A program made the translations under genes and the position numbers. From a virus (taxonomy: Duplodnaviria > Caudoviricetes), in IMG/VR virus record IMGVR_UViG_3300035661_004715, positions 1 through 38,711 of that record: DNA of 38,711 nt. One strand, 5' to 3'. This document shows, piece after piece, positions 1,929 through 25,388 of this stretch. The notes below the pieces were generated by a model. The model worked only from the letters and a program-made list of their open reading frames with translations. It was not told the origin of the DNA and searched no databases. The stretch's first letter is position 1, and each line of letters starts with the position of its first letter.

Positions 1929-2243
1929 TTATGCGGCAAGCGCGCAAATCACGTCGTCCAGACTACGGGCGACGATGTACCGACCCCCTGCCCGCTCAAG
2001 CCGATCGCGAAAGCCCTCTTGGTTCTCATTGAGCCGGCCCCTCGTGTCTTTCACCTCGATGCCGAGTAGCTGGCCAGAGGGAGGCAGGACCGCAAAGATG
2101 TCGGGAGAGCCTGGTGAGCCGTAACGTATAAAACTGCCGTGTTCGGATTTGAAAGCGCCTGTGTTGTTCCGCCAGTGGAACACGCGCTTGAGAACGAGGT
2201 AGTTGAGAATGGCGGCTTGGGTTGCCTTCTCGGTCGAGATCAT
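1929..2243 (-). CDS. VRR-NUC domain nuclease
   Basis: E..TQ, GSPDI, IEVK, Q..F and GG.Y.VARS motifs. Confidence 0.85.
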   Translation of the reverse strand: MISTEKATQAAILNYLVLKRVFHWRNNTGAFKSEHGSFIRYGSPGSPDIFAVLPPSGQLLGIEVKDTRGRLNENQEGFRDRLERAGGRYIVARSLDDVICALAA

Positions 2244-2542
2244 CCCGGGCGCGGCGTTAGCTCATGCCGCAGCCCGGCCCCGAACTTCCGGTATTTATCG
2301 CACTGCTTGTAAACGGCATGGAGATCGTCAGTCGGGATGCCTTCGAGCATCTTCGCTACCCGTCCGATGGATACCTTGGCGTACCCGTCTGCGACGTTGC
2401 CGGCATTGAGCCTGGCCTGGAATGCTTCGAGCATTTCATCGCGTGCATTGCGAGGCTTACCGGCTTGGGAACGCCGCTCCTGAATTATTGCGAGCGCGCC
2501 GGATAAATCCAGTTCTCTCGTTCTTTCTCCTACTAGTTCCAT
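2240..2542 (-). CDS. Hypothetical phage protein
   Basis: 100-aa ORF; ATGA overlap with the VRR-NUC gene; TGnTAAAAT 9 nt upstream of the ATG. Confidence 0.65.
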   Translation of the reverse strand: MELVGERTRELDLSGALAIIQERRSQAGKPRNARDEMLEAFQARLNAGNVADGYAKVSIGRVAKMLEGIPTDDLHAVYKQCDKYRKFGAGLRHELTPRPG

Positions 2543-2559
2543 ACTCAGTGTATTTTATC

Positions 2560-2905
2560 ATCCTCAGCAATCTGAGATTTTCTTGTTAGATTTCTGGTCG
2601 CGCCCCCCTCCCCCAAATCCGTGAGGATTTCAGTTTGGAAGACGCGGACTTTCTCGTTGAGTTTCTGCCCTGTTGTTCGGCTTGGGCAGCCCGCGCTGGA
2701 ACCGGTGTATTTATGTCCCCCGGTTATACCCCCCAGGACACGGAAAAAGCCGCTACGCTTTCGCGCTGCGGCTCGTTCCGGCAATCCAATGCAAGCAAAT
2801 AGTATCATCCCCCAAGGAAGACACAAACTCTTTGCAGTGGACATTGGATCGCATGCGCACACCCTACCATGATCCACGCTGAAACTTGAAAGCCGTAGGT
2901 GTGGA
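2560..2905 (-). ncRNA. Candidate structured RNA or leader of about 340 nt
   Basis: Consecutive stems (2614-2640, 2644-2694, 2741-2780 with a GAAA loop, 2784-2849); A-C mismatches on + read as G-U on the minus strand. Confidence 0.45.
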
Positions 2906-2908
2906 CAA

Positions 2909-3070
2909 CTACACGCCAAGCACCATATCCATGGTCGTAATGAACGTGCGGCGAGTAAGCTTCGCTTCCTTGGCGATTATGTCGTACGCTCCGCGACTGA
3001 TACGCACATTGATGGCTTCGACCTTCGGGGCGGGAGCCGACTTCCCTTTCTTCGTCTTGGTTGGTTTCAT
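2909..3070 (-). CDS. 53-aa ribbon-helix-helix (Arc/MetJ-like) regulator, not in the ORF track
   Basis: Hand translation MKPTKTKKGKSAPAPKVEAINVRISRGAYDIIAKEAKLTRRTFITTMDMVLGV; alternating beta-ribbon INVRI followed by two helices. Confidence 0.65.
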   Translation of the reverse strand: MKPTKTKKGKSAPAPKVEAINVRISRGAYDIIAKEAKLTRRTFITTMDMVLGV

Positions 3071-3153
3071 ACGGGCATTGTACTAGCTAGGCGAATTGCG
3101 CGCGGGTAGTTATCCACACCCATTTGAGTACGGGTATATGCCCGTGCTATACT
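3071..3153. promoter_or_regulatory. Divergent promoters with operator half-sites and a DnaA box
   Basis: Minus-strand TACAAT at 3077-3082; plus-strand TTGAGT-18-TATACT at 3124-3153; ACGGGYAT half-sites at 3071, 3130 and 3138 (reverse); TTATCCACA at 3110-3118. Confidence 0.65.
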
Positions 3154-3239
3154 CGTATGAGGTAGGACGACTTAGTTCCTACGCTTGCTCTTCCTTCTCC
3201 CTGCGTTCGCAAGCGCGTGGGGAAGGCAGAAAACTTACT

Positions 3240-3332
3240 ATGACTACAAAGGACAAACTGGGCGAGATAGCGAAGTTCGCGGGCGTGTTCGCGATTATCG
3301 GATTGTTCGTTCTAATCCTCGCCGCTGCATGA
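3240..3332 (+). CDS. Small single-TM peptide (30 aa)
   Basis: MTTKDKLGEIAKFAGVFAIIGLFVLILAAA; ATGA coupling to the next gene. Confidence 0.5.
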   Translation: MTTKDKLGEIAKFAGVFAIIGLFVLILAAA

Positions 3333-3490
3333 GCCGGAAACATAAGCGCCGGAAGCTCCTCGTAGAGACAGAGCCGATCGCACCGCGCAAAGCCAGCCAA
3401 TGCCGCGATCGAGGAGCTCACTGGCAGCGAATCCTAATCTTCGGCGAGTGCGGCATGTGCGGCAAGGAACTAGCACCCTTTACCGTATGA
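3329..3490 (+). CDS. Small Cys/His zinc-binding protein
   Basis: C..H..CxxC pattern; ATGA overlaps at both ends. Confidence 0.55.
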   Translation: MSRKHKRRKLLVETEPIAPRKASQCRDRGAHWQRILIFGECGMCGKELAPFTV

Positions 3491-3759
3491 CCATCCTCCG
3501 CATCCCGACAGCCGACCCCTACGCCTACATCGAAGTGCAGTTCGACGGCACGCCGGATGAAGCGTTCGATGAGTACAAGCGGCTCACCGCGCTCGTGAAG
3601 GGCGGAGCCGGCCTTGAACGGAAGGACTTTATCGCAATCCTCGATGACTACCTGAAGACAGGACAGATGACGGGCGATCCCGGTATCCTCTCCGAAATGT
3701 CGGATGATCAGCAGCTAGTTATCAGTGAGATTAGAAAGAGCTTCGGCCGTAACAAATAA
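3487..3759 (+). CDS. Hypothetical phage protein
   Basis: Start re-called at MTILRIP through the ATGA overlap; 90 aa. Confidence 0.65.
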   Translation: MTILRIPTADPYAYIEVQFDGTPDEAFDEYKRLTALVKGGAGLERKDFIAILDDYLKTGQMTGDPGILSEMSDDQQLVISEIRKSFGRNK

Positions 3760-3763
3760 TTCT

Positions 3764-4228
3764 ATGGAGTATCAGAAAAGTTCGTCAGGCATCGCGGGCG
3801 ACTGGGTAAAGGGCGAGAAGCTTACTACGGGCACGAAGGCGAAGTTGCTCACTGCCGCCGAACGCCGCGAGTCCATGTTCAAGGACAAGGATGGCGGGGT
3901 GAAGATGCAGGACGTTGCCAAGATCAAGTTCCAGGGCGACGACACGCAGTACAATATCGCGCTCAATCGAGGAACCATCGACGCTCTCATCGACGCATAC
4001 GGCAACAAGAGCGAGGAATGGGTCGGCAAGGTGCTCACGGTTCACATCGAACAGATGAACGTGGGCGGCCGGCGCGTGAAGGCTGTCTACCTGCTGCCTG
4101 ACGGCTTCCAGGTTGCGGAGGACGCGAACGGCTACATGATCGTGCAGCGCATCCCGTACACGGATGCAGAAGGGCCGGTCATCGACTATCCGGCTGACGA
4201 CATCAAGCCGGAGGATATTCCCTTCTAG
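3764..4228 (+). CDS. Putative single-stranded DNA-binding protein
   Basis: Beta-rich 154-aa body ending in the acidic SSB-type tail DDIKPEDIPF. Confidence 0.65.
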   Translation: MEYQKSSSGIAGDWVKGEKLTTGTKAKLLTAAERRESMFKDKDGGVKMQDVAKIKFQGDDTQYNIALNRGTIDALIDAYGNKSEEWVGKVLTVHIEQMNVGGRRVKAVYLLPDGFQVAEDANGYMIVQRIPYTDAEGPVIDYPADDIKPEDIPF

Positions 4229-4231
4229 CGT

Positions 4232-4414
4232 ATGCCCCATCTACGAACGATTGAAACGACAGGCGGGAACTTAGTCAAAGATGTGAAGCGGCTCTATTGC
4301 CTATCATGTCTTGGTGCTGGGGAGCTTATGCAAACCGCCTGGGATAGCGATAGCATGCAGTACATCCCTGACCGATCCGCCACTTGTCCTGATTGCGACG
4401 GCTTCGGCTACTGA
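4232..4414 (+). CDS. Zinc-finger protein (CxxCxGxG twice)
   Basis: CLSCLGAG and CPDCDGFG. Confidence 0.6.
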   Translation: MPHLRTIETTGGNLVKDVKRLYCLSCLGAGELMQTAWDSDSMQYIPDRSATCPDCDGFGY

Positions 4415-4417
4415 ACT

Positions 4418-4702
4418 ATGCCGAAAATGTCTCAGGCCAAGCGCTTGCATGAACTACTGAAGGATGGCCGTCCTCATTCCACCGTCGAGATTATGGAGCG
4501 CGTATACGGCGGCTCTCACCTGGGCATCGCGCGGATTGGCGCACGCATCCACGATCTGCGTTCCAAGGGCCTGAGCATCGAAGGCCGGAAGGACGCGGAT
4601 AACCCCGCGATCTATTGGTACACGATGACCGTGAAACCGAAGCCGCGCGTCGAGTTCATCATGCGCGACGGTGTGCGGTACGCCCGAATAATCCCAGGCT
4701 GA
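4418..4702 (+). CDS. Winged helix-turn-helix protein
   Basis: LLKDGRPHST.E and ARIHDLRSKGLSIE pattern. Confidence 0.7.
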   Translation: MPKMSQAKRLHELLKDGRPHSTVEIMERVYGGSHLGIARIGARIHDLRSKGLSIEGRKDADNPAIYWYTMTVKPKPRVEFIMRDGVRYARIIPG

Positions 4703-4763: not shown

Positions 4764-4946
4764 CTAGTTGGTAGCGCCCGCGCGGACCGCCGTGCTGGTG
4801 TGTGTGATGATAGCGAGCATGGCGAGGAGAGCGGTGATGATGTCCTGGTATTGCACCGGGACGAACGGAACGACGGCGTTCAATACGGCCATCGCGATGA
4901 TCGCGAGCTGAAGCAGGTTGGTCTTCGATTTGAGTGGGTTGTACAT
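4764..4946 (-). CDS. Putative holin (2 TM)
   Basis: 60 aa, two hydrophobic helices, N-terminal KSKT, next to the endolysin. Confidence 0.6.
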   Translation of the reverse strand: MYNPLKSKTNLLQLAIIAMAVLNAVVPFVPVQYQDIITALLAMLAIITHTSTAVRAGATN

Positions 4947-4998
4947 AGGTAAATTGTAGCAGCGAGACGGTGTCGCCTCGTGCGGTGACGTGGATAAG

Positions 4999-5772
4999 CT
5001 ACTTCGGCCGATAGCGGCCTCGGAGAATGTCGAGGATGAGGGTCAGGATCGGCCCGGTGTTCCAAGCCTTCGCCGTTTTCACCGCCTGGTCGTAGGGAAC
5101 GGTGGCGTCGACGACGGTCATTTCCGGCGGGAGCACGGGGTCCTGGGGTGCCTCTGGGGCCTTCACGGCGAGCCTCTCCGTCGAGAACTTCGCCAGCGAG
5201 ACGCACCCGTTGTAGCCGTTGTTGTAGCCGGGGATGCCGTAGAAATAGCCCGCGCGGTCTACGAATTTCGAACCATCAGCGAGCGTGACGTAACGGTCGT
5301 ATTTGTTCGAGAACTGCGTCTTGGCGAGGATGCGGATTTGCGGACCGTGAAGGTGCGCGCCGGCATGGCTCCCTGCCCGCTTCTCTGCCTCGGTCACAAG
5401 ATGCTGGCCGACGTAGCAGGCCCCGGTGTTCCCGACCTTCCCGATGATGTCGCCCACCTGGTAGGTCTTCCCTACCTCGGCCGAAGCCTCCGAGAGGTGG
5501 CCGTATGAAACCTCGTAAACGCCGGTCTGCGTCTCCACGATGAAGAACGCTGCCCGGTAGTCCATGAGCACCGGATCGTCGACATGCATGAGCGAGTAGC
5601 AGTAGGCGTTCGCCACGCAGTTCGGGATCTCCGTGCCCCACGGGACGCCCCAGTCATAGGCCGTGTGCCCCTGAAGGCCCTGTGAGGCGTAGAGCGGATT
5701 GGCGTTGGCCCCGAACCGCTGGGCGATCGTAGCTTTCGGGTAAGGCAGATAGACGGCTAGAGTTTTTTCCAT
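4999..5772 (-). CDS. M23 family metallopeptidase (endolysin)
   Basis: HTAYD (HxxxD), YGHL, IIGKVGNTG and HLH motifs. Confidence 0.85.
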   Translation of the reverse strand: MEKTLAVYLPYPKATIAQRFGANANPLYASQGLQGHTAYDWGVPWGTEIPNCVANAYCYSLMHVDDPVLMDYRAAFFIVETQTGVYEVSYGHLSEASAEVGKTYQVGDIIGKVGNTGACYVGQHLVTEAEKRAGSHAGAHLHGPQIRILAKTQFSNKYDRYVTLADGSKFVDRAGYFYGIPGYNNGYNGCVSLAKFSTERLAVKAPEAPQDPVLPPEMTVVDATVPYDQAVKTAKAWNTGPILTLILDILRGRYRPK

Positions 5773-5773
5773 A

Positions 5774-6136
5774 TTAGGGGAGGATTACGAGCTTCAAAAT
5801 TGCGACAATGACCGCGCCGACGACGATCCTGACGATCCACTTGTTGCCGTCCTTGATGTCGGCCACGTCGGAGTGGATCTGTTTGATGTCCTGACAGATT
5901 AGCGGGATGCGGCGGACAAGGATCGTCATCTGGTCCGGATCGCGCTTCTCGTCGCCCTCGCCAAACACCTCTTTCAGGCCCTCTATAAGGGCCTCCTTGG
6001 TCTGTTCGGCGGTCTTCTTGATGGCCTCGGCTAGCTGCACCTCACGGGCGATTTCAACGGCCATCTGAGCGCTCTTAGCCTTATGGGCGGCGTGCTCTGA
6101 GGCTTCGTCCGAAGTAAGGTTCGGGTCGTGCTCCAT
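5774..6136 (-). CDS. Coiled-coil protein with C-terminal TM (XhlA/holin-like)
   Basis: Start re-called at MEHDPN; coiled coil followed by WIVRIVVGAVIVAILKLVILP. Confidence 0.6.
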   Translation of the reverse strand: MEHDPNLTSDEASEHAAHKAKSAQMAVEIAREVQLAEAIKKTAEQTKEALIEGLKEVFGEGDEKRDPDQMTILVRRIPLICQDIKQIHSDVADIKDGNKWIVRIVVGAVIVAILKLVILP

Positions 6137-6137: not shown

Positions 6138-8735
6138 CTATTTGCAGGTGTTGGTCGAGACCGTGAAGGCCCCCGCGACGATAGAGACATACTGAGGCGC
6201 GCCTAGCACGTCGTAGAGGAGGAGGCAGGAGCCCTTGTTCTGGCCAGCCTTGCCGACCTCAAGCGTGCTAGTCGCGTTAGCGGTGGTCGTTGCCACCTGG
6301 AGCTCGGCGGTTGGCGTGGTCGTGCCGATGCCGAGTCGTCCGGTGCTCAAAAACCGCGCCGTTTCCACACCACCTGCTGGCTGAAGGTCGATATGTCCGC
6401 CTGTCGTCTGGGCTGCGTTGCTCGTGCCTTGCAGGATCATAAATGCCGTCGAGGCGGTTCCCCCACGATAGGCCGCTGCGGTAGGCGTAACGAGCGCCGG
6501 AGAGCTCGACAGGACGATATTGCCGGTGCCCGTCACGCCGGTCGAGACGACACCCTTAAAGACGACGTTCCCAGCATTGTTTACTCCAAGCGATGTCTGT
6601 GTGGATGAACCCACCGCGAAGGCGTAGTTGGCATTTAGTTGTGTGTCGGCGCCTACCGAAAGTAGGGCCGTTGGAGTCGTGGTACCTATACCAACGAGGC
6701 CGCTACCGAGAATGGTCATCGCGGTCGAGGTCGCGTTCTGTGCGGTGCCGGTTAGACCAGCCGGTGCAGTCTGGAAGAGTATCGAACCGCCGACGCCCGT
6801 GCCCGTGCCCCTTGAACCAGTGATAGCGAAGTTCGCTCCTGAGCCGTTGGTAGTTCCCGTAAGCACATCCTGAACCTTGATAGTCTGAGCTATAGGAGTT
6901 GCAGAATCTGCCGCACCTAGGCGGAGCATCGCCGCACCATCACGACGTAGGAATAGATCATCTACGCTGCCTCGGAGTGCGATGGTGCTATTTCCACTGT
7001 AGTTAAGGATAGACACCGGATCGCCCAAACCCGAAGTAAGTATCAACGCGTTCGCGGTAGTCAGCTTAATAGCGAACGTCTGGCTGAACGTAGTACCACC
7101 GTTAGACGGGTTGATTGTGAGGCCAGCAATTTTTACGTTGCCGTTCTCGATGTCGAGAGGAGCCGTTGGCGTCAGGGTTCCAATACCTACGTTCCCGGCG
7201 TTGGTCACTACCACGCTGGTTGCTGACGAAGATCCTATGACGAACTGGGGCGTCGCGCCTAAAGTCGCGGTGGGGTTTATGGAAAGGAGGCCGTATGGAG
7301 ACGTTGTGCCGAGACCGAGACGGCCACTTTGAGTGATGCGCATCGTCTCGTTCGCAGCCGCAGTACCTCCGTTGAGGAAGTTCGTATAGCCCAGCCCTGA
7401 CGCAGTGGAAGTCGACGTGACAATGGATGTTGGACCCATCGAGTTCTGAATAAGGAACAAATACGGGACCGCGATAGCTGCGCCGAACGAGCTATCGGCG
7501 TAGGTACTTGAGTTAAGGAACATTCCGGCGAAGTTCGTGACGTTGCTATCGGCTTTGTCGTTGTAGAGATTGTAGCCAGAGTACGCGGCGGTGCCGTTGC
7601 TGGTGTTTCCGGTGTAGTAGCCCACACCCGCCGTGGTGTTATCGGTTCCCCAGAGGTCAATACAAGACTGCGAGACGCAGGAGAACGTAGGTGCCGCGCT
7701 GCCAAAATGGTAGTAATTGCCGTAGTGGTCTTCACGGCCCGTGACTGCGAATGCAGACATTGGCGACGAAGTGCCTACGCCAACTCGGCCAGCGTTGGTA
7801 ACAACGAAATTCGTGGCAGACGAGGAACCGATCGCGAAAGCGGGCGTAGCACCTGTGCCAGCCACTGGATTAACCGATAGCAACGCCCACGGTGACGACG
7901 AGGCAATCCCGGCATTTCCATTGCTATCGATAGTGAGGCGGCTCGTGGTCGCTAGTGCGTCGGTCAGCGTGTTGATGTTGAACACCCCACGCGAGAAGCC
8001 GAACGAACCATAGTGCTGGTTCGGGATGGCGGCGGCGTCTTCAAAGAGAAGTTGATTAGTTGTGCCAGTGTTCGTGAGCGTGAGAAGTCGTTGAGGAGAC
8101 GAGGTTCCGATACCCAAATACGAGCCGTTGTAGGTAAGACCAGAATTGCCGGCGAACGCTCCGCCCGCGTTGTACTGCACCGTGGAAGACGCACCGCCTG
8201 GTGTACCGCCCCCTGCCGTGGAGTTGACCACGTAGGGACTTCCCGACGTGCCCGATCCGGTCAGGCTGACATTGGTGCCTGCGGTGACCAGGCCGGTGAT
8301 GTTGCCGAGCTTGGCCGCGATGTTCGCGTCGAGCTTTTGGATAGCGGTTAGGATGGTGTCTGAGGGGCTAAGCGAGCCTGCTCCCGAGACGAACCCTGCC
8401 AAGGTGGCCGCCAAAGCGCGGGCATTCGTGAAATAGAGGTTGTTGAGTTCCGTCACCATCGCTGACGTGTAGTCACCAGCCTGGGCGGCCACGGCACCGG
8501 TACGAGAGAAGACTGACGAAACGCCCCCTGCCGCGAGGCCAAGCGAAGAGGTGGCGGTCAGCGTGTACGTGCCGGCTGCGTTCCCCACGAGCACTTTGCC
8601 GTACGTCGGTGCTGTGGAGGTGCCGGTACCGCCGCGTGACGGCGGCAGCACTTGGCCGTGGGCGGTGCCAGCAGCAAAGAAAGCTCCCAAGCCGACGAGA
8701 ACCGCGATCAGCCCACGCGAGAGGATTGATTTCAT
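6138..8735 (-). CDS. Fibre/adhesin-like beta-repeat protein with N-terminal signal peptide
   Basis: Repeated G(I/V/L)GTxxP units; VSSVFSRTGAV motif; signal peptide ending TAHG-Q; two C-terminal Cys. Confidence 0.75.
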   Translation of the reverse strand: MKSILSRGLIAVLVGLGAFFAAGTAHGQVLPPSRGGTGTSTAPTYGKVLVGNAAGTYTLTATSSLGLAAGGVSSVFSRTGAVAAQAGDYTSAMVTELNNLYFTNARALAATLAGFVSGAGSLSPSDTILTAIQKLDANIAAKLGNITGLVTAGTNVSLTGSGTSGSPYVVNSTAGGGTPGGASSTVQYNAGGAFAGNSGLTYNGSYLGIGTSSPQRLLTLTNTGTTNQLLFEDAAAIPNQHYGSFGFSRGVFNINTLTDALATTSRLTIDSNGNAGIASSSPWALLSVNPVAGTGATPAFAIGSSSATNFVVTNAGRVGVGTSSPMSAFAVTGREDHYGNYYHFGSAAPTFSCVSQSCIDLWGTDNTTAGVGYYTGNTSNGTAAYSGYNLYNDKADSNVTNFAGMFLNSSTYADSSFGAAIAVPYLFLIQNSMGPTSIVTSTSTASGLGYTNFLNGGTAAANETMRITQSGRLGLGTTSPYGLLSINPTATLGATPQFVIGSSSATSVVVTNAGNVGIGTLTPTAPLDIENGNVKIAGLTINPSNGGTTFSQTFAIKLTTANALILTSGLGDPVSILNYSGNSTIALRGSVDDLFLRRDGAAMLRLGAADSATPIAQTIKVQDVLTGTTNGSGANFAITGSRGTGTGVGGSILFQTAPAGLTGTAQNATSTAMTILGSGLVGIGTTTPTALLSVGADTQLNANYAFAVGSSTQTSLGVNNAGNVVFKGVVSTGVTGTGNIVLSSSPALVTPTAAAYRGGTASTAFMILQGTSNAAQTTGGHIDLQPAGGVETARFLSTGRLGIGTTTPTAELQVATTTANATSTLEVGKAGQNKGSCLLLYDVLGAPQYVSIVAGAFTVSTNTCK

Positions 8736-8750
8736 TATGTAAAGTATAGC

Positions 8751-9101
8751 TTACGGATTCCACACAAGACCGGCCGCAGCGAGTAGCCGACGGGCCTCGG
8801 TGAGCTGTTTGGTAAGGCCCGCGATCTGGTCACGCTCCTTGCGTGCCAGCATGTCCCACATCTCTCCGCAGGTTGTGCACCGACCGGAAGGATGAATGCA
8901 GTCTCGACGCGTCCGCACTTTCAAGTACGCGTAGATGCCGCCCTGCTCCGGGTACGCCTCCTGGTATTTCGCGACGTGATAGTTGATGGTCGAATGGTCG
9001 ACCCCAAACCGTCTGGCTAGAGACGCCTGGCTCTCGCCATCGTTAAAGGCAACAACAATCTCGGTGATTTCAGTGCCCGAGAGGTGCCGGAAGTGCCTCA
9101 T
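8751..9101 (-). CDS. HTH protein with Cys cluster and coiled coil
   Basis: GESQASLARRFGVDHSTI; C.H..C..C. Confidence 0.7.
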   Translation of the reverse strand: MRHFRHLSGTEITEIVVAFNDGESQASLARRFGVDHSTINYHVAKYQEAYPEQGGIYAYLKVRTRRDCIHPSGRCTTCGEMWDMLARKERDQIAGLTKQLTEARRLLAAAGLVWNP

Positions 9102-9107
9102 AGTTCG

Positions 9108-10166: not shown

Positions 10167-10169
10167 ACG

Positions 10170-10655: not shown

Positions 10656-10668
10656 ACGTCCAATAATA

Positions 10669-15212: not shown

Positions 15213-15434
15213 TTATTCCGGGAAGGGACGGGGACAAGGCTTGAACCCGTCAAGCTCAAGACCCTCGGCGAGCCTCTCGTTCGGGTGCTCATAGCAGATG
15301 GCGAGTTCCCACTTGCCCTCCGACGTTTCTCTGACGCCGCTCCGGATCTTTGCCGAGCGCTCGTATATCGCGCGCGCGGCGTAGGCGTCGTCCTGGCTAG
15401 GGTATTCCTTGCACCAGCAGATTTCGGTCATCAC
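15213..15434 (-). CDS. Hypothetical protein inserted in the tail operon
   Basis: 73-aa ORF filling the gap, co-oriented. Confidence 0.45.
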   Translation of the reverse strand: MMTEICWCKEYPSQDDAYAARAIYERSAKIRSGVRETSEGKWELAICYEHPNERLAEGLELDGFKPCPRPFPE

Positions 15435-15442
15435 CGCCCCGG

Positions 15443-17567: not shown

Positions 17568-17576
17568 AGGCGTGAA

Positions 17577-17981: not shown

Positions 17982-17993
17982 AGAGCGCAGCGG

Positions 17994-19136
17994 CTACGAA
18001 GCCGACGTCTTAAGAACGACTGCTGCTGCCGGAAGCGCGATAGTCACCGCGTGGCGATGATTGTAGCGGAAGGCACTCTGGTTAGCGCGGAAGAGCGACT
18101 TGCCGCCGACCGTAGCATCCGTCGACTTCGCGACCTCCATAGGTCCACGGTCGCCGAAGGCGAGCGCGAGCTTGAGGTTGCCGAACACGGCGAACTTCTG
18201 GCTGATCGCAGAGCTTGAGAATGCTGGGAGAACGTCGGTCGTGTAGACCGGATACCCCAGAATCTCGCCTGACGGCTGGATGCCGTTCTGGCGGCGCTGA
18301 GACGCTAGGTTCGACTGACCGTACTCGAACACGCCGCTCGTAGAGCGAGCGCGGAGCTTCGCCCAGACGGTGCGGTGCATGTACCAAGCCGCATCTGCGA
18401 GCGCCGACGTATCGAGCGCCCCGATGGCGTCTGATGCTTCTGGAAGCGTGAGCTTGTCGAAGCCCGTGTTGCCAGTAGCCATCGTCTGAACGGTCACGTC
18501 GCTGGACGCGAGGAGACCGACGAATGGCGAGCCAGCGAACGTACCGCCGACAAAGCCTTCGCGGTCGATGCGGTAGGCGAGACCCTCGGATACGAGACCG
18601 AGGAGCCAGTCCGCTACGTTCACGTTGGCGTCGGACAACAGAATGTTGCTGACACGGATAATGGTCTGCCAGGTCTTGGTCTGGAGACGAGCGACGCCGA
18701 TGTCATTCTGCGTCTCGCCGGCTTCGGTGTCCTCGCCGTCGTACTCGCCCTGCATCGCCGCGCCGGTGTAGCGCGGGATCTCAAGCTCGCCGGTCGTAAC
18801 CGGGAAACGAGAGGCGTCACGGATCACGAGACCCGTGGTCGCCGCGATGCGCATGATCTCGCTGTGGACCTCTACCGGGATGAGGTAACCGCCGGTCTGG
18901 TCGCTAGAGCCGAGATAAGCGGCCTTCTCGCCGCGCGCGATGGCTGCAAGGTCCTGGGCGAAGGCGAGCTTGCGCTCACCATCGAGGCCATTGCCGTTGA
19001 GCTGAGCATCGAGGCGCGCTGCCCGGACCACTGTCTCAACCTTGTCGGCCACCTCCTTGCCGACGATCTCTTCGAGGTTCTTCTTGACGCTTTCGTCTAC
19101 AACACTGAACAGCTCCTTCTTGAGCGCTTCGTCCAT
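17994..19136 (-). CDS. HK97-fold major capsid protein
   Basis: GGYLIP, WYMH, ILGYPV and FGNLK motifs; SD AGGAG upstream. Confidence 0.92.
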   Translation of the reverse strand: MDEALKKELFSVVDESVKKNLEEIVGKEVADKVETVVRAARLDAQLNGNGLDGERKLAFAQDLAAIARGEKAAYLGSSDQTGGYLIPVEVHSEIMRIAATTGLVIRDASRFPVTTGELEIPRYTGAAMQGEYDGEDTEAGETQNDIGVARLQTKTWQTIIRVSNILLSDANVNVADWLLGLVSEGLAYRIDREGFVGGTFAGSPFVGLLASSDVTVQTMATGNTGFDKLTLPEASDAIGALDTSALADAAWYMHRTVWAKLRARSTSGVFEYGQSNLASQRRQNGIQPSGEILGYPVYTTDVLPAFSSSAISQKFAVFGNLKLALAFGDRGPMEVAKSTDATVGGKSLFRANQSAFRYNHRHAVTIALPAAAVVLKTSAS

Positions 19137-19148
19137 ATACTCCTAAAA

Positions 19149-20048
19149 TTATGTAGTAATTGCCGGGTGTAACTTGGTCTGAACTGCTTGGCGCGCCTCG
19201 GCTAATACGTCGCCAATTATGGTTGCAGCATCCTGGAGGGTCTTGCGGTTTGCATTGAATACCGCAAACGCCTTCTCCTCTTCGGTAGCTTCGGTAGCTT
19301 CGTCAGCCTCATCACCCTCCGGCTCCTTGGCTGTGATGCCGAGTGCCTCTAAGGCGAGGATCGCTGCTTTCAGGCTGTCGATGACGGGTGCGATCTGCTT
19401 CGTACTAAAACTGCGCTCCTCCACGGGCGCGGCTGCCTCAGTCACCACTACTTCGGCCGGAGCCTCCGCATCGGCTGCCGGCTCTTCCGCTGGTTCCGCC
19501 GTGCGCTCCACGAACATGAGCCCCTTCGTGACGAGCTCGTTGACGCTGAGCTCCTTTTCCATGGCGAGCGACAGCGCGTAGGGGTTGGCGGGAACGGAGA
19601 CGAAGGAGAACTCAAGGAGCTCCGCCTTCGTGATGAGGTTGCCCTCGCGCTCCTTCTCCAAGAAGCCAACCGACGTCGCGCGGATGATGCCGAAGTCGTA
19701 GAGCTTGCGTACCTCCTGGGCCTTGTCAGTCGGCGCAAACTTGCCCTTCGCGACCATCTTGCCATCGACGACCTCAACGCTTGTCGCCATGCCGATCGGC
19801 TGGTTGTGATCGTGGCCCCAAAGGACAACGGGATTGTTGAGGTAGTGCGTAAGGTCCCAACCATCGAGCTTGATGACCTCCTGGTAGCGGTCCAGGTTCT
19901 CCGTTGTGATGACGACTTCAAAGGTGCCGGTAGCAGCGTCTGCGGCAGCCTTAGTGTCCGCGAGTAGCTTTCGCACCTCCGCCGACTGGAACCGTTCGAC
20001 TATCTCTGCTGCAAGTTCCGCCCCAATACTCTTAAGCTCGTCTTTCAT
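19149..20048 (-). CDS. HK97 prohead protease with acidic C-terminal extension
   Basis: DRYQE, NPVVLWGHDH..PIG, SVGF and LLEFSFVSVPANP motifs; start re-called at MKDELK. Confidence 0.9.
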   Translation of the reverse strand: MKDELKSIGAELAAEIVERFQSAEVRKLLADTKAAADAATGTFEVVITTENLDRYQEVIKLDGWDLTHYLNNPVVLWGHDHNQPIGMATSVEVVDGKMVAKGKFAPTDKAQEVRKLYDFGIIRATSVGFLEKEREGNLITKAELLEFSFVSVPANPYALSLAMEKELSVNELVTKGLMFVERTAEPAEEPAADAEAPAEVVVTEAAAPVEERSFSTKQIAPVIDSLKAAILALEALGITAKEPEGDEADEATEATEEEKAFAVFNANRKTLQDAATIIGDVLAEARQAVQTKLHPAITT

Positions 20049-20179
20049 GACATGAAGTATACATGAGCAATTCCACGACTCCCGACGACAGGTGGAAAGC
20101 CCGCAGCGGCAAAATCGGCTATTGACTATCAAACTACCTCATCTCACTATTCTCACTATCTGAGGACAGGGAGGCCACA

Positions 20180-20575
20180 ATGGCTTCGATAGAGATCGAC
20201 TTCGACGTGTACAAAGCGCTCACGCTCCGGCGGGCGCACGAGGGCATGACTTACAACGACGTGCTGCGCGACCTTCTCGATCTGGGTGGCTCCAAGGTCG
20301 AGAGTGTTGCCACGCCGGCCACGGGCCCCGACTGCATCTTGCAAGGGATCGCCTTCCCCGAGGGGACGAAGTTTCGCGTCAGCTACAAGGGCCGAACATT
20401 CAACGCGGAGGTCAAGAAGGGCCAGTGGGTTGGCGAGGATGGCCAGGTCCGTCGCAGCCCCTCCGATGCGGCAAGCGCAATCACCCATACGAATGTGAAT
20501 GGCTGGCGCTTCTGGTCGTTCAAGCGGCCTTCGGACGGTCAATGGCGAAAGATGAGCGTCCTCCAAGCTGCCTGA
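20180..20575 (+). CDS. SeqA/RHH-like N-terminus plus RAMA (DUF4357-like) domain moron
   Basis: IEIDFDVYKAL..TYNDVLRDLL; SPSDAASAIT..NVNGWRFW; SD GGGAGG; opposite strand inside the head operon. Confidence 0.7.
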   Translation: MASIEIDFDVYKALTLRRAHEGMTYNDVLRDLLDLGGSKVESVATPATGPDCILQGIAFPEGTKFRVSYKGRTFNAEVKKGQWVGEDGQVRRSPSDAASAITHTNVNGWRFWSFKRPSDGQWRKMSVLQAA

Positions 20576-20580
20576 GACGA

Positions 20581-22665
20581 CTAGCCGATGCTGATCTCCG
20601 CCGGGCGGATGAAGCATCGGCAGTTCGTGTGCAGGGGCGGGACGTCGATGGCGCGGTAATCGAGAACAAGCTCCTTGCCCTCTGCCGTGAGGGTTTCGCC
20701 CTTGTTGAAGAAGACCTCGTTGATGCCGATCACCCGGCCATCCTGCGGGCCGCACCATGGACACACGCGCTCGTCCTCGGCTGTGTACCAGCGCATCGTC
20801 TTCACGACGCCGCTCTGTCGGAAAGCCTCTCGGCTGCCCTGGTTGGCTATGTAGAAGGATTCCGTGCGGGCGACGGCAGCTGCGCGCACGCTGTCTGAGT
20901 AGTCGTAGACCCGGTGAACGCGCTCCGTGAGGTCGTTCAGACCCTCGCCGCTCGCGATCCCGTCGTTCAGGGCCTTCTCTAGGAGCTTCGCCGTCGTCCG
21001 GTTGTAGGATTTCGCAAGCCGGCGCGCGGCCTGCTCAACGACTGTCCTGAGCGCGGGCAGTGAGGAGTCCAACGCGCCCGGGTAGCCCTGGTCGATGAAC
21101 TCCGCGATTGCCTGTTCGACCATGAGGCCCTTGAGGATCGGACCGATGAAATCGACGAGGAGCGAAACTTCGCCGTCCATGTCGAACAAGTCGCCCTGCT
21201 TGACGGCCTTGGTGATCTGCTTGAGCCGCTGCGTCACCTCACGCTTCTGGCGGCCGTTGAAGTCGCGCACCTTGTCGGCCACGAGCTTCTCATGGTCGCC
21301 GACCCGACCGACGAACGCCTTATGGCTGGCGGCGTCCGGGTCTTGGTGCGCGGTGGCGATCTCGACCGCGCGCGTCGCGATACTGCTCACCAAGCGTTCC
21401 AGCCTGGCCCCTGCCCTCGCCCTGGCCGGCATCGCCTTGGTTGGCTCGCCCTCATCCGTGTTGTCATTGGCCGGCGCTGGCGCGGGCTTCTCTGGGCTGC
21501 CCAGTGGAGTGAAAGTAGCGGAGCTGTTGACGACGTCACCGCCCTCTACAGGCGGAAGACCGACGGAAGCGCGAACCTCATTGACCGTCATGTAGGGCTG
21601 CTTGGCGAGGGCGATCTCGCGCTCCTTCAGCAGCAGATCCATGTTGACCGGGACGAACTCGTCGTATGCGAAATAATAGCGCCCGGTGCTGTCGAGCATC
21701 GGCGCAATGGTGGTGTTCAGGAAGGCCAGGAGGTCGTCAGCGATCGGCTTCAGGGTGTACTTGGCGTAGATGTACTCGCTCGCCTCGGCCGATGCCCGGT
21801 TCACCTCCGTGGTGAGCCCCACGAGGGTTTTAGGGACGCCGAAGCCGGCAAGTATCTTGTCGCGGTACCGGTCGTCAGTGGCCCCCATCTCCATCTCGGC
21901 CATGTTCGCGCCGGACTTGGAATACTTGCTGCCCTTGGGAAGCACACCGAGCTTGTGGGCGTTGGCAACGCCGACGTGATCGTTCTGCAGGCCGATCTTA
22001 ATGAGCTTGATGCGGGTCTCGGTCTCTTCGTCGGTCTCGATGAAGCCGCCAAAGGTCGCGCCGTTGACGAAGAAGCGGCTCAGGAACTCAGTCAGATACG
22101 AACTGGTATCCACCCATTTCGCGATCTTTTGGAGCTTTCCGGCGCCCCAGTAGGGCTTGGCAGGGTCGACATAACGGTCGTGCAGGACGTCCTTCGCCAG
22201 GATCGTCCGCTGCTGCGGTCCGTCGGAATATCGGAAGCCTACGAGCACCCCGCTTTCCACGATGGGAGCCATCTTGGTCGGGATTAGGGGCCGGAGTTTG
22301 CCACCTCCAAGGCGCTCCCAGAACGCGTTGCCGGTGAGCTCTTTGTACGCCGTGTTGAGGTAGACGAAGTCCTTACCAGTGAAGCCGGCGGCCGGACTTT
22401 CAAGGAAGGATACGAGAGGCCCATCGAAGACCTCCCTGTCGTCGCCAGCGGCCACGAACCGCATGACCTTGAGGCGAATGCTTGCCGCGGACTTCGCGTT
22501 TTTGTCCGTGGCTATGTAGACCCACTCCTTGTTCGCTTCGAGGAGATTGGCCGCGTTCACACCGTCCGCGTTTCCGCTGGTGACCGGATTCCATGTGCCC
22601 GGATAGCCCCCGTCCGCCCCTTTCTTTGCGCCCAGCCCTCGGAGGAGGGTGGTGAGGATATTCAT
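20581..22665 (-). CDS. Portal protein fused to a MuF/SPP1 gp7-like minor head domain
   Basis: Portal motifs LTGNAF, FFVNGA, ILAGFGVP, MTVNEVR..GLPPVEGGD; C-terminal ARTE, W.TAEDERVCPWC, PPLHTNCRC. Confidence 0.9.
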   Translation of the reverse strand: MNILTTLLRGLGAKKGADGGYPGTWNPVTSGNADGVNAANLLEANKEWVYIATDKNAKSAASIRLKVMRFVAAGDDREVFDGPLVSFLESPAAGFTGKDFVYLNTAYKELTGNAFWERLGGGKLRPLIPTKMAPIVESGVLVGFRYSDGPQQRTILAKDVLHDRYVDPAKPYWGAGKLQKIAKWVDTSSYLTEFLSRFFVNGATFGGFIETDEETETRIKLIKIGLQNDHVGVANAHKLGVLPKGSKYSKSGANMAEMEMGATDDRYRDKILAGFGVPKTLVGLTTEVNRASAEASEYIYAKYTLKPIADDLLAFLNTTIAPMLDSTGRYYFAYDEFVPVNMDLLLKEREIALAKQPYMTVNEVRASVGLPPVEGGDVVNSSATFTPLGSPEKPAPAPANDNTDEGEPTKAMPARARAGARLERLVSSIATRAVEIATAHQDPDAASHKAFVGRVGDHEKLVADKVRDFNGRQKREVTQRLKQITKAVKQGDLFDMDGEVSLLVDFIGPILKGLMVEQAIAEFIDQGYPGALDSSLPALRTVVEQAARRLAKSYNRTTAKLLEKALNDGIASGEGLNDLTERVHRVYDYSDSVRAAAVARTESFYIANQGSREAFRQSGVVKTMRWYTAEDERVCPWCGPQDGRVIGINEVFFNKGETLTAEGKELVLDYRAIDVPPLHTNCRCFIRPAEISIG

Positions 22666-22695
22666 GGCACTCAGTATACATCGCTGAATCCACGC

Positions 22696-23238
22696 TCAGC
22701 GGCGTGCCTTGCGACCTGTGGACGCCACGGGCGGTGCCAGCTTTGCGATCGTCGTGTCGATCATCTCGTAGTCGACCTGGGACCATTCCTCAGCGTCTTT
22801 GAAGTTCATCCAAGCCTTGTTCAGTTTAGGCCCGATGGCTCGGATTAGCAGCGCTTCGAGGTCGCCGATAGTCGTGTGGGTCTCTTCGGAAACCTCGCCC
22901 TCAAGCTCCAGCAGCGAAAGAACGCCGTCCGCCCCAGCCGCCCCGATCTGGTTGAAGCCGAACCAAGAGAAGCGGTCCCATTTCCCTTTCAGATTATCGC
23001 TCAAATGGTCCTTCAATCGAAGGCCAAGGCCCCGCTGCCTGGTGAGGCCTACGTAGCTCGGGCCATACTCGTCGTAGAGGATGTAGATGCCCTGCTGTTT
23101 CCGAAAATCGGCTACCTTGAGGGAGCCTCGGTTGGAACCGACCCTACCGAGTAAGCGGAACTCGCCCTTGTTTCCCTGGCCGGGCGACCACTCGATCTCC
23201 GCCTCTCGCCAAAAGAGGCCGTAGCTTGTTATCTTCAC
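22696..23238 (-). CDS. GIY-YIG nuclease family protein (moron)
   Basis: GIYILY...YVG, L..RL..H, WDRFSWF, LEALLI and N motifs; SD GGAGGG. Confidence 0.75.
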   Translation of the reverse strand: MKITSYGLFWREAEIEWSPGQGNKGEFRLLGRVGSNRGSLKVADFRKQQGIYILYDEYGPSYVGLTRQRGLGLRLKDHLSDNLKGKWDRFSWFGFNQIGAAGADGVLSLLELEGEVSEETHTTIGDLEALLIRAIGPKLNKAWMNFKDAEEWSQVDYEMIDTTIAKLAPPVASTGRKARR

Positions 23239-23303
23239 CGGTCACCCTCCATCCAAGCTTCACTCTAAGTGTTTCGTGGCATCGGGCAATCTGAGCGCCA
23301 CCT

Positions 23304-24677
23304 TTACAAGTCGAGGAAGACCACTCCGAGATTCTCGCCCTCGGTTGGCCGCGACAGCGTGAGTGCCAGCGCGTCGCCGACGTTCGGTGACGCTACGCCG
23401 CGCTTCTTCATGTCATCCTTGCTTTCGAGCTGGAGCTTGCCGGCCGACGTGATCTTGTATTTGGGCTGGGCCAGCTCGTAGAAGCCCTCGTGCTTTTCGA
23501 GGACCGCGTCCCGCAGCCAGTCCCGGACGTTCACCCAGCTCTCGATGCGGATGTTGATGTGCTCGGCTTCATTCCGGGCCTTGCTCGCGACGTTCACGCC
23601 GAACACGCGGTCTGCGATGTCCGGCTGCTCCCTGAGCCGGTCGAAGGTGCCGGCTCCCAGGCCGCCGGTGATGTCGATGAAGAGCCTGACCGTGGGGTTG
23701 GCGCGCAGGTAGATCGCGGACTTGCCCGCGAGCTCCATCGTGTTGTTGCCGTTGATGACCCACTCGACCTTCGCCCTGTTTCCGGTGCGGCGGACCAGGG
23801 CGCTGTCGTCATCGCCAAAGCGCGCCACGTCCAGGCCGGCAACGTCGTCATCCTGGTTGGTGAGCTCGCGGTCTGCATTGAAAGCGCCCTCCACCTGGTC
23901 GATGGAAATGAGGGTGTCTGACGAGCGCTGCGGGAAGTGCCCCAGCACGCGGACACGGTAAATGTCGCTGTCTTCGCCGTACTTCTTCCGGACCTCCTCC
24001 ACCCACTCCCACGTGACGAGACCGGGGATGACTTGGCGCTTGGCCTGCACGTTCGGCGTATCGAACGCGCTGATGTGAATCTTGCTGAAGGAGGGGTCTT
24101 TGAAGGCGTCGTAGAACGGCCCGCTGTTCTGCGTCGGGTTGCCGATGAGCACGAACCGCACGACGTGACCGCCGGCCATCGCACCCATGGCGGCTTCGTA
24201 GATCTTCGGAGATATGCCCGATGCTTCGTCGAAGATGACGAGCATGGATTTGGCGTGCCAACCCTGGAAGCCCTCCATGTTGTGCTCGTCGTTGGCGATG
24301 CCCAGCGCAAACCACGTCTCGTCGATGTCGAGCTTTGTCTTGAGGAGCTTGCCGCCTAGGGCGACCAGGGACTTCTGGTAGGCGTCACGCAGGTTTCGCC
24401 AGAACTGGTTCTCGATCTGCGTCCACGTCGGCGCAGTGTCGATGACTACGGCGTCGGGTCCGTAGGCATAGAGGAACCGCAGCGCCTCGCGCGCCATGTG
24501 GTAAGTCTTGCCGGAGCCGTTGTTGGAACGGATCGCGGTGTTCCGGTGATCCCGGATAGAGAGGCTGATCTCGAGCTGCTTCCCCCACGGCTCGTACCCG
24601 AGCACCTCGCGGTGGAAGAACGCCGGATCATCCCTGAACCGCTGCCGGAGCTTTTGCTCCTGGCTTGGCCTTTCCAT
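23304..24677 (-). CDS. terL: Terminase large subunit
   Basis: Walker A SNNGSGKT; Walker B VIFDEASG; GNPT; nuclease GLDVARFGDD; SPNVGDAL. Confidence 0.92.
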   Translation of the reverse strand: MERPSQEQKLRQRFRDDPAFFHREVLGYEPWGKQLEISLSIRDHRNTAIRSNNGSGKTYHMAREALRFLYAYGPDAVVIDTAPTWTQIENQFWRNLRDAYQKSLVALGGKLLKTKLDIDETWFALGIANDEHNMEGFQGWHAKSMLVIFDEASGISPKIYEAAMGAMAGGHVVRFVLIGNPTQNSGPFYDAFKDPSFSKIHISAFDTPNVQAKRQVIPGLVTWEWVEEVRKKYGEDSDIYRVRVLGHFPQRSSDTLISIDQVEGAFNADRELTNQDDDVAGLDVARFGDDDSALVRRTGNRAKVEWVINGNNTMELAGKSAIYLRANPTVRLFIDITGGLGAGTFDRLREQPDIADRVFGVNVASKARNEAEHINIRIESWVNVRDWLRDAVLEKHEGFYELAQPKYKITSAGKLQLESKDDMKKRGVASPNVGDALALTLSRPTEGENLGVVFLDL

Positions 24678-25023
24678 TGGCGATGGTGATTAGGTCGGCG
24701 AGCGTCTTCCCTCCGCTGGTGAGGTCCACCTTGTCGGTGATCTTGCCGTAGAGGCCGTTGCTGAGCTCCTGATAGTGGAAGAAGCTACCCTTCTTGATGG
24801 CTGCTTGAAGCGCTGATGCCTGAAGCAGCTCTTCGATCTCTTCGGGCTCCATGCCGTTAGCCGCCGCGAGCTTTCGCATGGCCTCCATGATGACCGTCTT
24901 GCGGTTACGGGTGCCGAGCTTCCGGCCCGCCGGATTGCCGCTCTGGCCTGGCTTCCACAGGATGAGGTTCTGCGGATTACCGCGCGGCTTGCTGTTCTTT
25001 TCTGTGTTCTTGGCCTCGGCCAT
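24628..25023 (-). CDS. terS: Terminase small subunit (DUF5681-like)
   Basis: WKPGQSGNPAGR motif; overlaps terL; ATG 8 nt after TGcTATAAT. Confidence 0.75.
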   Translation of the reverse strand: MAEAKNTEKNSKPRGNPQNLILWKPGQSGNPAGRKLGTRNRKTVIMEAMRKLAAANGMEPEEIEELLQASALQAAIKKGSFFHYQELSNGLYGKITDKVDLTSGGKTLADLITIANGKAKPGAKAPAAVQG

Positions 25024-25032
25024 ATCCAAAAA

Positions 25033-25257
25033 TTATAGCACTCGACGCCTCGCTAGGCGGAGCGTGGCGCGTCGATGCAGCTTCCTAACCCATAGGGAGA
25101 AGGAGGTCCAAAGAGTGGGCGGGAGGTGCGCCACCATCTGCCCTGACCTCATTCGATGCGCGAGCGTGTACATGTGCCGCGCATCCCAGCGCCGGCGGTT
25201 AGGGCGCTTGCGATCTATCCCCTGCTCTTTCACTAGGCGGGCAAACGCGGAGCTCAT
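25033..25257 (-). CDS. Basic hypothetical protein
   Basis: 74-aa ORF starting 2 nt after the upstream stop. Confidence 0.45.
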   Translation of the reverse strand: MSSAFARLVKEQGIDRKRPNRRRWDARHMYTLAHRMRSGQMVAHLPPTLWTSFSLWVRKLHRRATLRLARRRVL

Positions 25258-25259
25258 GG

Positions 25260-25388
25260 CTAGAAGATGATCGCGAGCCCGACGACTACGAATATTGCGA
25301 GCGGCACTACGCCGAAGAAGAAACCAAGCGTCTTGGCCGCGTCACGGCTGACCTGCTTACGCACATCAGCATATAGTTCCGGGTTCAT
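25260..25388 (-). CDS. 42-aa single-TM peptide, not in the ORF track
   Basis: MNPELYADVRKQVSRDAAKTLGFFFGVVPLAIFVVVGLAIIF; TGgTATAGT 8 nt upstream. Confidence 0.55.
   Translation of the reverse strand: MNPELYADVRKQVSRDAAKTLGFFFGVVPLAIFVVVGLAIIF

What the first reader, a model, noticed from the sequence alone, without database searches (positions are those of the whole stretch)
1929..25388. Patescibacteria (CPR)-style phage core joined to alphaproteobacterial-style integrase and cargo
Seen: core genes start at tATG just after the previous stop with no SD (TAGtATG at 12084 and 6136; TAAtATG at 5772; TAAcgtATG at 10166; TAAtgtATG at 14032; TAGcgtATG at 4232; TGAactATG at 4418). In contrast alpA, 29854, 20180, 34016 and 37293 have strong AGGAG/GGAGG sites. 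From recall: the fibre repeats look Parcubacteria-like, while ORF 1-216, YodC, AlpA and the integrase look Rhizobiales-like. Inference: a cross-phylum chimera, possibly gene flow between an epibiont and its host.
Basis: partly seen in the sequence, partly recalled or inferred. Interest (0 to 1): 0.85.

Follow-up and report, generated by a model that had tools for sequence, protein, structure and literature searches.

The report
Patescibacteria-type phage living in Proteobacteria
This prophage belongs to a rare family that sits whole in tRNA genes of cultured Proteobacteria, yet its virion genes lack ribosome-binding sites and are related to those of a prophage whose host is likely an ultra-small Patescibacterium, so the lineage likely jumped between the two phyla.

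Summary
1 of 31 core genes has a Shine-Dalgarno (SD) site against 11 of 21 other genes, and 9 core genes start right behind a -10 box. It is not a misassembly or a one-off. Colinear 37-39 kb prophages with attL/attR repeats lie in tRNA genes of Parerythrobacter lacustris, a Sphingomonadaceae MAG and gammaproteobacterium LSUCC0112. The head-tail module is far from the two cultured alphaproteobacterial phages used as references. Its sister clade (capsid 36-45% identical, same SD-less style) holds a capsid from a Patescibacteria MAG and a provirus beside a Parcubacteria-like sppA. Integrase, RelA-like gene and restriction methylase match Alphaproteobacteria best, and the arm carries a MOBC relaxase and a VirD4-like coupling protein. 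Best reading: an old Parcubacteria-type siphophage joined a proteobacterial mobilizable island and now lives in Proteobacteria, with at least two such entries. The direction of transfer, the epibiont route and the target of the virions are not shown. Patescibacterial hosts rest on two labels.

The parts
1..1925 (.). Left-end cargo: ORF 1-216, secreted-type ORF 190-642 (SD-led), RelA/SpoT-domain gene 807-1925
   Evidence: PF04607, PADLOC PDC-S33 E 4e-89; top 6 plasmid hits rhizobial, 34-38%; ORF 1-216 has a single hit, Methylobacterium 38%
1929..4702 (.). SD-less early block: VRR-NUC nuclease, small ORFs 2240-2542 and 2909-3070, and a divergent + strand operon (3487-4702) with zinc-finger and HTH genes
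   Evidence: promoter-like site 3124-3153
4764..6136 (-). Lysis block: XhlA-like protein (6136-5774), M23 peptidase (5772-4999), holin-like ORF (4946-4764); no spanin seen
   Evidence: PF10779 (below cut-off), PF01551; holin label inferred from size and place; lipobox scan found no real lipoprotein gene in the window
6138..12084 (-). Tail tip: repeat-rich fibre (8735-6138), HTH gene, Gly-rich protein, baseplate-type protein, YqbQ-like hub (12084-10669)
   Evidence: PHROG tail fibre and hub hits; Atlas; -10 box 7 nt before the fibre ATG
12086..17114 (-). Siphovirus-type tail and neck: tape measure (479 aa), chaperones, tube (15010-14036), terminator, neck, head-tail adaptor
   Evidence: PF20155, PF18906, PF05135; colinear at 47-80% identity in G001-G003, tape measure of G003 33%
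17175..25029 (-). HK97-type head and packaging: decoration, SAP protein, major capsid (19136-17994), prohead protease (start 20048), portal-MuF fusion, TerL, TerS
   Evidence: PF05065, PF04586, PF04860+PF04233, PF03237; -10 boxes before TerS, portal, protease
20180..20575 (+). SD-led cargo inside the core (RAMA-like domain)
   Evidence: PF18755 below cut-off; absent from the colinear relatives
22696..23238 (-). SD-led cargo inside the core (nuclease-like by recall; no family hit)
25434..27329 (.). PvuII-type restriction-modification cassette: methylase, controller, endonuclease
   Evidence: PF01555, PF09225, PADLOC; methylase 79% to a Gluconobacter plasmid, 67% to the Proteus vulgaris plasmid
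27964..30030 (.). Conserved arm genes, SD-led: DUF932, CHC2 zinc-finger protein (start 29721), small ORF 29854-30030
   Evidence: conserved in G001, G002, G413, G010
30143..34893 (-). Mobilization module: Replic_Relax (MOBC-type) relaxase 31081-30143, VirD4/TrwB-like coupling protein 33225-31183, membrane partner 34016-33225, conserved ORF 34842-34078
   Evidence: PF13814, PF10412; PF13814 = MobC paired with VirD4 (PMC5357655); same trio on non-phage alphaproteobacterial islands
36335..37578 (-). DUF6953, DUF2158 (YodC-like), ORF 37293-36907, AlpA
37617..38711 (-). P4-type tyrosine integrase with arm-binding domain
   Evidence: PF13356, PF00589; top 5 plasmid hits alphaproteobacterial, 27-30%; homologues sit at attL/attR of G001-G003

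Best explanation
The window is a temperate, siphovirus-type phage of a family that integrates into tRNA genes of Proteobacteria, and its SD-less head-tail module likely descends from phages of Parcubacteria-type Patescibacteria that were joined, long ago, to a proteobacterial integrative mobilizable island (integrase, AlpA, coupling protein, MOBC relaxase). Shown: the gene content; the two start styles; whole relatives with att repeats between proteobacterial housekeeping genes; a circular form with the arm; the sister-clade links. Inferred: the integrase and AlpA insert and excise the DNA; the relaxase and coupling protein let a helper conjugation channel move it, which would bypass receptor limits and may have been the way across phyla. 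The late genes would be read in the new host by leaderless initiation and by re-initiation after the upstream stop, neither of which needs an SD site, so the old style could persist. The tube gene has gained an SD-like motif. Virions most likely reinfect Proteobacteria. SD-led cargo (restriction system, RelA-like gene) would defend the lysogen.
For: Whole colinear prophages of 38.3, 38.6 and 36.7 kb with 47-, 46- and 65-bp tRNA repeats beside aspS/mltG, mreC, and mfd/cysS/glnS/acnB; capsid also on a 565-kb Bauldia MAG contig. Operon-junction starts: SD 3 of 55 in four prophages against 20 of 64 in two hosts; T at -1 37 of 55 against 17 of 64. The style runs through all five lineage groups: SD 18 of 353, pyrimidine at -1 318 of 353. 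Sister clade: P0156 named Patescibacteria MAG; provirus G006 beside yerC and sppA, where 5 of the 6 taxon-named rows among 120 sppA relatives are Patescibacteria; G006 has SD in 1 of 26 starts. Parcubacteria are SD-scarce and about half lack the anti-SD (PMC10783764, PMC9297842). Capsids of Bradyrhizobium and Azospirillum phages lie on a branch of 5.85 changes per column. GC of each prophage follows its host a little below it (about 0.57/0.63, 0.61/0.69, 0.48/0.53). An SD-like motif precedes the tube in 9 of 9 of the proteobacterial group against 2 of 36 others. Caulobacter has about 17% leaderless mRNAs (PMC8459731).
Against: Only two Patescibacteria labels. One is a 13.9-kb MAG contig (binning can err); the other rests on one flanking gene whose closest named relative (94%, 2.5-kb contig) is labelled Obscuribacterales. 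The same sister search also names Stellaceae and Nitrolancea. No Patescibacteria-labelled member lies inside the window's own clade; identity to G006 is only 29-52%. The root is by midpoint or very distant outgroups, so direction is not fixed. Hosts themselves are only 26-47% SD by my rule. An arm-less complete genome, G415, nests inside the proteobacterial clade and needs either loss of the arm or a second host type. G413 has the arm but no SD-like motif before its tube. The relaxase of G001 has an internal stop. No spanin was found, which is unusual for lysis of Gram-negative cells (general knowledge).
Confidence: 0.6

Rival explanations
1. Two-host shuttle: the element rests in the proteobacterium as a tRNA prophage, entering by conjugation, while its virions infect patescibacterial epibionts. 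The late genes keep the CPR style because they are still selected there.
For: SD stays at 2 of 104 core starts in the proteobacterial group despite capsids diverged to 57-86%. Arm-less, fully SD-less complete genome G415 nests beside the LSUCC0112 prophage. No spanin. MOBC is the commonest relaxase class in Patescibacteria, 58 of 109 (PMC12102498). Phages co-targeted by CPR and non-CPR spacers are reported (PMC10746230, PMC12960796).
Against: GC follows the proteobacterial host (three cases); SD-like motif gained before the tube; no CPR-labelled member in the window's clade; the introduction of PMC13059738 lists no alphaproteobacterial host for cultured Patescibacteria.
Confidence: 0.12
2. The SD-less, pyrimidine-ATG style is a trait of this phage lineage (tight coupling and leaderless promoters) and not a mark of CPR origin. 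The family has spread over several phyla, Patescibacteria being one recipient.
For: Labels in the sister clade span Patescibacteria, Alphaproteobacteria and Chloroflexota; root unsure; Proteobacteria have many non-SD genes.
Against: Host genes beside G006 (yerC, sppA) share the same style, a TATACT box 11 nt before the yerC ATG, whereas proteobacterial host genes do not. Basal members of both clades are A-rich and SD-less. Sigma-70-type boxes argue against Bacteroidota (general knowledge).
Confidence: 0.2
3. Dead-end captures: CPR phage DNA is occasionally trapped in a proteobacterial island and never makes virions there.
For: Very rare: 0 of 400, 0 of 400, 0 of 300, 0 of 14 and 0 of 44 other genomes; broken relaxase in G001; no spanin.
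Against: Virion genes are whole and colinear in all three integrated copies; the arm keeps its place and order across distant members; a 43.5-kb record with terminal repeats carries both parts.
Confidence: 0.06
4. Misassembly joining a CPR phage to an alphaproteobacterial island.
For: The window comes from a metagenome; the best-covering run may be its source.
Against: Re-assembled contigs 1337-6774 and 13401-29428 bridge both borders with no mismatch at depth 8-11; a second study's contig covers 25291-25546; the same build occurs in two isolates.
Confidence: 0.02

Closest known systems
HK97-fold temperate siphoviruses with P4-type integrase and AlpA at tRNA genes
   Same: Head, neck and tail gene order; tRNA 3'-end att repeats; defence cargo
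   Different: No cultured relative: best identities in 50,697 phage records are about 33% (TerL), 29% or less among listed capsids, 26% (tube); SD-less late genes; relaxase and coupling protein; no spanin found
Integrative mobilizable elements with MobC (PF13814) relaxase and VirD4 coupling protein (IME class 8 of PMC5357655, passages read)
   Same: Integrase + VirD4-like protein + PF13814 relaxase, no mating-pair genes; matching non-phage islands in 3 of 300 alphaproteobacterial genomes
   Different: Tyrosine integrase rather than serine integrase; fused to a full virion module
[quoted passage not shown]
   Same: One phage lineage linked to Patescibacteria and to another phylum
   Different: Those links come from CRISPR spacers and concern Saccharibacteria, Gracilibacteria and Absconditabacteria, or Paceibacteria with Desulfobacterota; here the link is integrated prophages in cultured Proteobacteria and a Parcubacteria-like sister clade
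Bacillus phages carrying Replic_Relax (search listing only)
   Same: Relaxase-family gene in a tailed phage
   Different: Not read; other hosts; no CPR link in the listing

Membership tests
Temperate tailed phage (Caudoviricetes, siphovirus build) | HK97-fold capsid, portal, terminase, protease | tested here: met
Temperate tailed phage (Caudoviricetes, siphovirus build) | Tube and tape measure without sheath | tested here: met
   PF18906, PF20155; no sheath hit among 60 proteins
Temperate tailed phage (Caudoviricetes, siphovirus build) | Integrase and att repeats | tested here: met
   Integrase in window; att repeats shown in three relatives only, because the window is cut at gene ends
Temperate tailed phage (Caudoviricetes, siphovirus build) | Makes infectious virions | not testable with these tools
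   Two relatives have terminal repeats; no RNA or virion data
MOBC/VirD4 integrative mobilizable element | PF13814 relaxase next to a VirD4-like coupling protein, with integrase and no mating-pair genes | tested here: met
   both Pfam hits over the cut-off
MOBC/VirD4 integrative mobilizable element | oriT and transfer by a helper system | not tested
   No oriT search or mating test
Patescibacteria phage (current host) | Integrated in, or targeted by spacers of, a Patescibacterium | tested here: not met
   All host-labelled members of the window's clade are Proteobacteria; spacers could not be searched
Patescibacteria phage lineage (ancestry) | Nearest outside relatives hosted by Patescibacteria | tested here: inconclusive
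   Two labels in the sister clade, beside Stellaceae and Nitrolancea labels
Patescibacteria phage lineage (ancestry) | SD-scarce, partly leaderless starts like the host's | tested here: met
   PMC10783764 section iv, PMC9297842 passages
Ordinary alphaproteobacterial phage clades | Virion proteins nest with cultured alphaproteobacterial phages | tested here: not met
   tree with two reference capsids
PvuII-type restriction-modification with controller | Methylase divergent from controller-endonuclease operon | tested here: met
CapRel fused toxin-antitoxin | RelA-like toxin fused to a capsid-sensing antitoxin domain | tested here: inconclusive
   RelA_SpoT domain 67-171 and PDC-S33 match; no CapRel model hit in PADLOC 2.0

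The most novel reading that the evidence does not exclude
A phage that shuttles between two phyla: it enters a proteobacterium by conjugation through an attached Patescibacterium's secretion channel, rests there as a tRNA prophage, and releases virions that infect the epibionts, so the host carries a weapon against its parasite.
Probability: 0.12. Interest if true: 0.95.

Novelty: new variant of a known kind. Interest (0 to 1): 0.72.

Why it matters
Host jumps of phages between phyla are mostly argued from spacer matches. Here whole prophages of a Patescibacteria-linked lineage sit in two cultured Proteobacteria, so the question can be tested by induction and host-range assays, and virions of a CPR-type phage could be had from an ordinary culture. 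The hosts of most Parcubacteria are unknown. If DNA passes by contact, these prophages and the related islands would be a record of who attaches to whom. The case also warns that SD use or best hits of virion genes can give the wrong host. Nine literature searches found no description of this family; the library lacks most subscription papers and I saw no supplements, where such phages could be listed.

Tried and rejected
Atlas look-ups gave no host taxa for the hub (viral clusters) or the fibre (taxa not recorded), so the fibre's CPR likeness stays untested. The top 10 tube representatives gave one taxon name, LSUCC0112. The genome scan used patterns of the near clade, so it could not find sister-clade prophages in Patescibacteria genomes, and no Patescibacteria genome could be set as a search centre. 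The metagenome loci held only 10-kb flanks, still phage DNA in the 20 of 80 that I read. No further integrated copies in samples of 400, 400, 300, 14 and 44 proteobacterial genomes. Single-protein scans for the relaxase and tubes in viral contigs added little. No RNA holder listed. ORF 34842-34078 as a decayed second coupling protein: only weak pieces, E 0.011; kept as a guess. Methylomagnum plasmid pRS11DPr5 as a circular form: it has coupling protein and relaxase but no annotated virion genes and no hit to the window's virion proteins. No att repeat found in the window, G413 or G415 with the five tRNAs tried. Earlier scan notes gave no sequence match. The careful capsid tree did not finish; the quick tree was used. 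Recent one-off chimera and misassembly were rejected (see rivals).
Full report
What the window is. The 38,711 bases are a whole virus record. Its integrase, terminase and capsid are on record on an 86,715-base contig, so it is probably a prophage cut from a chromosome. It encodes an HK97-type head, a sheath-less tail with a 479-aa tape measure, a lysis block, a small early block, a PvuII-type restriction system, a RelA-like gene, and an arm with DUF932, a CHC2 zinc-finger protein, a Replic_Relax relaxase, a VirD4-like coupling protein, AlpA and a tyrosine integrase. PF13814 is the MobC relaxase class and goes with VirD4 in mobilizable elements (PMC5357655, passages). GC is about 0.60 throughout, with no step at the module borders. 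The four runs that hold it are microbial-mat and sediment metagenomes.

The observation. All twelve quoted start contexts are right. For 52 of 58 called genes with starts that I chose, SD occurs in 1 of 31 core genes and 11 of 21 others; T at -1 in 20 of 31 and 5 of 21; a -10-like hexamer 6-11 nt before ATG in 9 of 31 and 0 of 21, against 0.6% by chance. An automatic rule agrees: 1 of 17 SD, 13 of 17 T. The border is blurred: capsid and tube have AGGAG(G) very close to ATG, two SD-led cargo genes lie in the core, and five arm genes, including relaxase and coupling protein, lack SD.

Not an artefact. Re-assembled contigs of the probable source run bridge both borders without a mismatch at even depth, and a contig from another study covers 25291-25546. 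More decisive, a scan of 185,579 species genomes confirmed 3 of 22 pattern matches: Parerythrobacter lacustris RS5-5, a Sphingomonadaceae MAG and gammaproteobacterium LSUCC0112. Each holds a colinear prophage (TerL 74-85%, capsid 57-66%, tube 70-80%) with integrase, AlpA, coupling protein and relaxase, bounded by 47-, 46- and 65-bp tRNA repeats, beside housekeeping genes such as aspS, mreC, mfd, glnS and acnB. A capsid is also named from a Bauldia MAG. A 43.5-kb record with terminal repeats carries core and arm. The family is rare: no other copy in samples of 400, 400, 300, 14 and 44 genomes.

The style is foreign to these hosts. At operon junctions the four prophages have SD in 3 of 55 starts and T at -1 in 37 of 55; DNA of two hosts has 20 of 64 and 17 of 64 (p=4e-4 and 1e-5). 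Prophage GC lies a little below each host's and moves with it (three cases).

The link to Patescibacteria. No cultured phage is close. A sister clade shares the gene order from portal to tail tip at 36-45% capsid and mostly 42-54% tube identity, usually with another terminase. Among its 120 best capsid hits three carry a taxon: a Patescibacteria MAG (13.9-kb contig), Stellaceae (250-kb contig) and Nitrolancea (5-kb contig). Provirus G006 ends in a XerC-like integrase followed by yerC and sppA. Of 120 sppA relatives six carry a taxon; five are Patescibacteria (Pacebacteria 73%, Campbellbacteria 74% on an 811-kb contig, Parcubacteria 59%, two unclassified) and the closest, on a 2.5-kb contig, is labelled Obscuribacterales. 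G006 has SD in 1 of 26 starts, and yerC starts 11 nt behind TATACT. Campbellbacteria and Wolfebacteria have 5% and 2% SD genes (PMC10783764, section iv), and the anti-SD was found in 48% of Parcubacteria (PMC9297842, passages). Over nine core genes in 58 loci, SD is 18 of 353 and pyrimidine at -1 is 318 of 353, alike in all five groups.

Trees. In a quick capsid tree of 67 rows the window's clade (22 rows, support 99) and the sister clade (39 rows, 98) group together (84), far from Bradyrhizobium and Azospirillum phage capsids. A four-protein tree of 38 rows repeats the split. A high-GC subclade with the Stellaceae capsid nests in the sister clade, and one member (G010) carries the DUF932-CHC2-relaxase arm. 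Holding it together with the window's clade is rejected (p-AU 6e-5; I named the group after seeing the tree). So the lineage met Proteobacteria at least twice. The root is not secure, so the direction rests on the start style being the likely ancestral state.

The arm and cargo. Top plasmid hits are alphaproteobacterial for the integrase (5 of 5), RelA-like gene (6 of 6 rhizobial) and methylase (Gluconobacter, 79%); ORF 1-216 has one hit, Methylobacterium; DUF932 hit a planctomycete and a cyanobacterium. In 3 of 300 other alphaproteobacterial genomes the coupling protein and relaxase occur without head-tail genes nearby, in two of them with integrase and AlpA; a Methylomagnum plasmid has the pair too. 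A phage-free donor for the arm therefore exists.

How it likely works. Integration and excision at a tRNA are inferred from the att repeats of relatives. Late genes would be translated by leaderless initiation and re-initiation; Caulobacter has about 17% leaderless mRNAs (PMC8459731, passages), so no SD gain is forced. The tube has an SD-like motif in 9 of 9 loci of the proteobacterial group and 2 of 36 others (arm presence is not shown for every locus in that group, and G413 is an exception), which suggests late expression on SD-using ribosomes. Mobilization through a helper channel is inferred from gene content only. Patescibacteria carry a type IV system, many stand-alone coupling proteins and mostly MOBC relaxases (PMC12102498, passages), which makes contact transfer plausible but untested.

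What does not fit. G415, a complete 26.7-kb genome with no integrase or arm and T at -1 in 30 of 37 starts, nests beside the LSUCC0112 prophage. No spanin was found. SD remains at 2 of 104 in the proteobacterial group despite deep divergence. These leave a two-host cycle open. Cultured Patescibacteria are known on Actinomycetota, Gammaproteobacteria and methanogens; no alphaproteobacterial host is listed (PMC13059738, abstract and introduction). Phages co-targeted by CPR and non-CPR spacers are reported (PMC10746230, abstract and one section; PMC12960796, passages).

Verdict. Observation confirmed; interpretation partly supported. This is an undescribed, old family joining a Patescibacteria-linked virion module to a proteobacterial mobilizable island, resident in cultured Proteobacteria. 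Confidence in the best explanation 0.6; interest 0.72.

Noticed in passing
G415 (L156-L157, 26,694 bases): Complete record with terminal repeats; genes called on one strand only, almost no SD, no integrase or mobilization arm, yet nested inside the clade integrated in Proteobacteria.
   Followed up: partly
G120:C1:991000-1009000; G226:C12:404000-413000; G297:C2:20000-42500: Non-phage alphaproteobacterial islands with the same coupling protein and relaxase plus a second, convergent coupling protein; a serine-recombinase-like gene in G120 (Pfam) and G297 (by likeness). G226 has a 1084-aa repeat protein (Peptidase_S74, GDSL) that shares the fibre repeat at 54% and starts behind a TACAAT box. They look CPR-like by recall only.
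   Followed up: partly
window 15010-15018 and 19136-19145: AGGAGG lies 1 nt before the tube ATG and AGGAG 3 nt before the capsid ATG, closer than a working SD site normally sits; an SD-like motif before the tube recurs in 9 of 9 near relatives.
   Followed up: partly
window 34078-34842: Conserved ORF in the place where G413 has a second coupling-protein-like gene; it may be a decayed copy (E 0.011).
   Followed up: partly
G006 (L056-L058): Two unrelated prophages in tandem with near-duplicate early genes, separated by yerC, sppA and a restriction island.
   Followed up: partly
G001:C6:523557-524429: The relaxase of the Parerythrobacter prophage has one internal TAG, while its virion genes are whole.
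   Followed up: no
G003 (L053:11801-12907): In LSUCC0112 the integrase lies at the lysis end of the prophage, opposite to AlpA, unlike the other members.
   Followed up: no
window 20581-22665: Portal is fused to a Mu-F-like head morphogenesis domain; close relatives match over its full length.
   Followed up: no
L018, L019: Two sister-clade loci have AAAGGA at normal SD spacing before several genes, hinting at a third host type.
   Followed up: no
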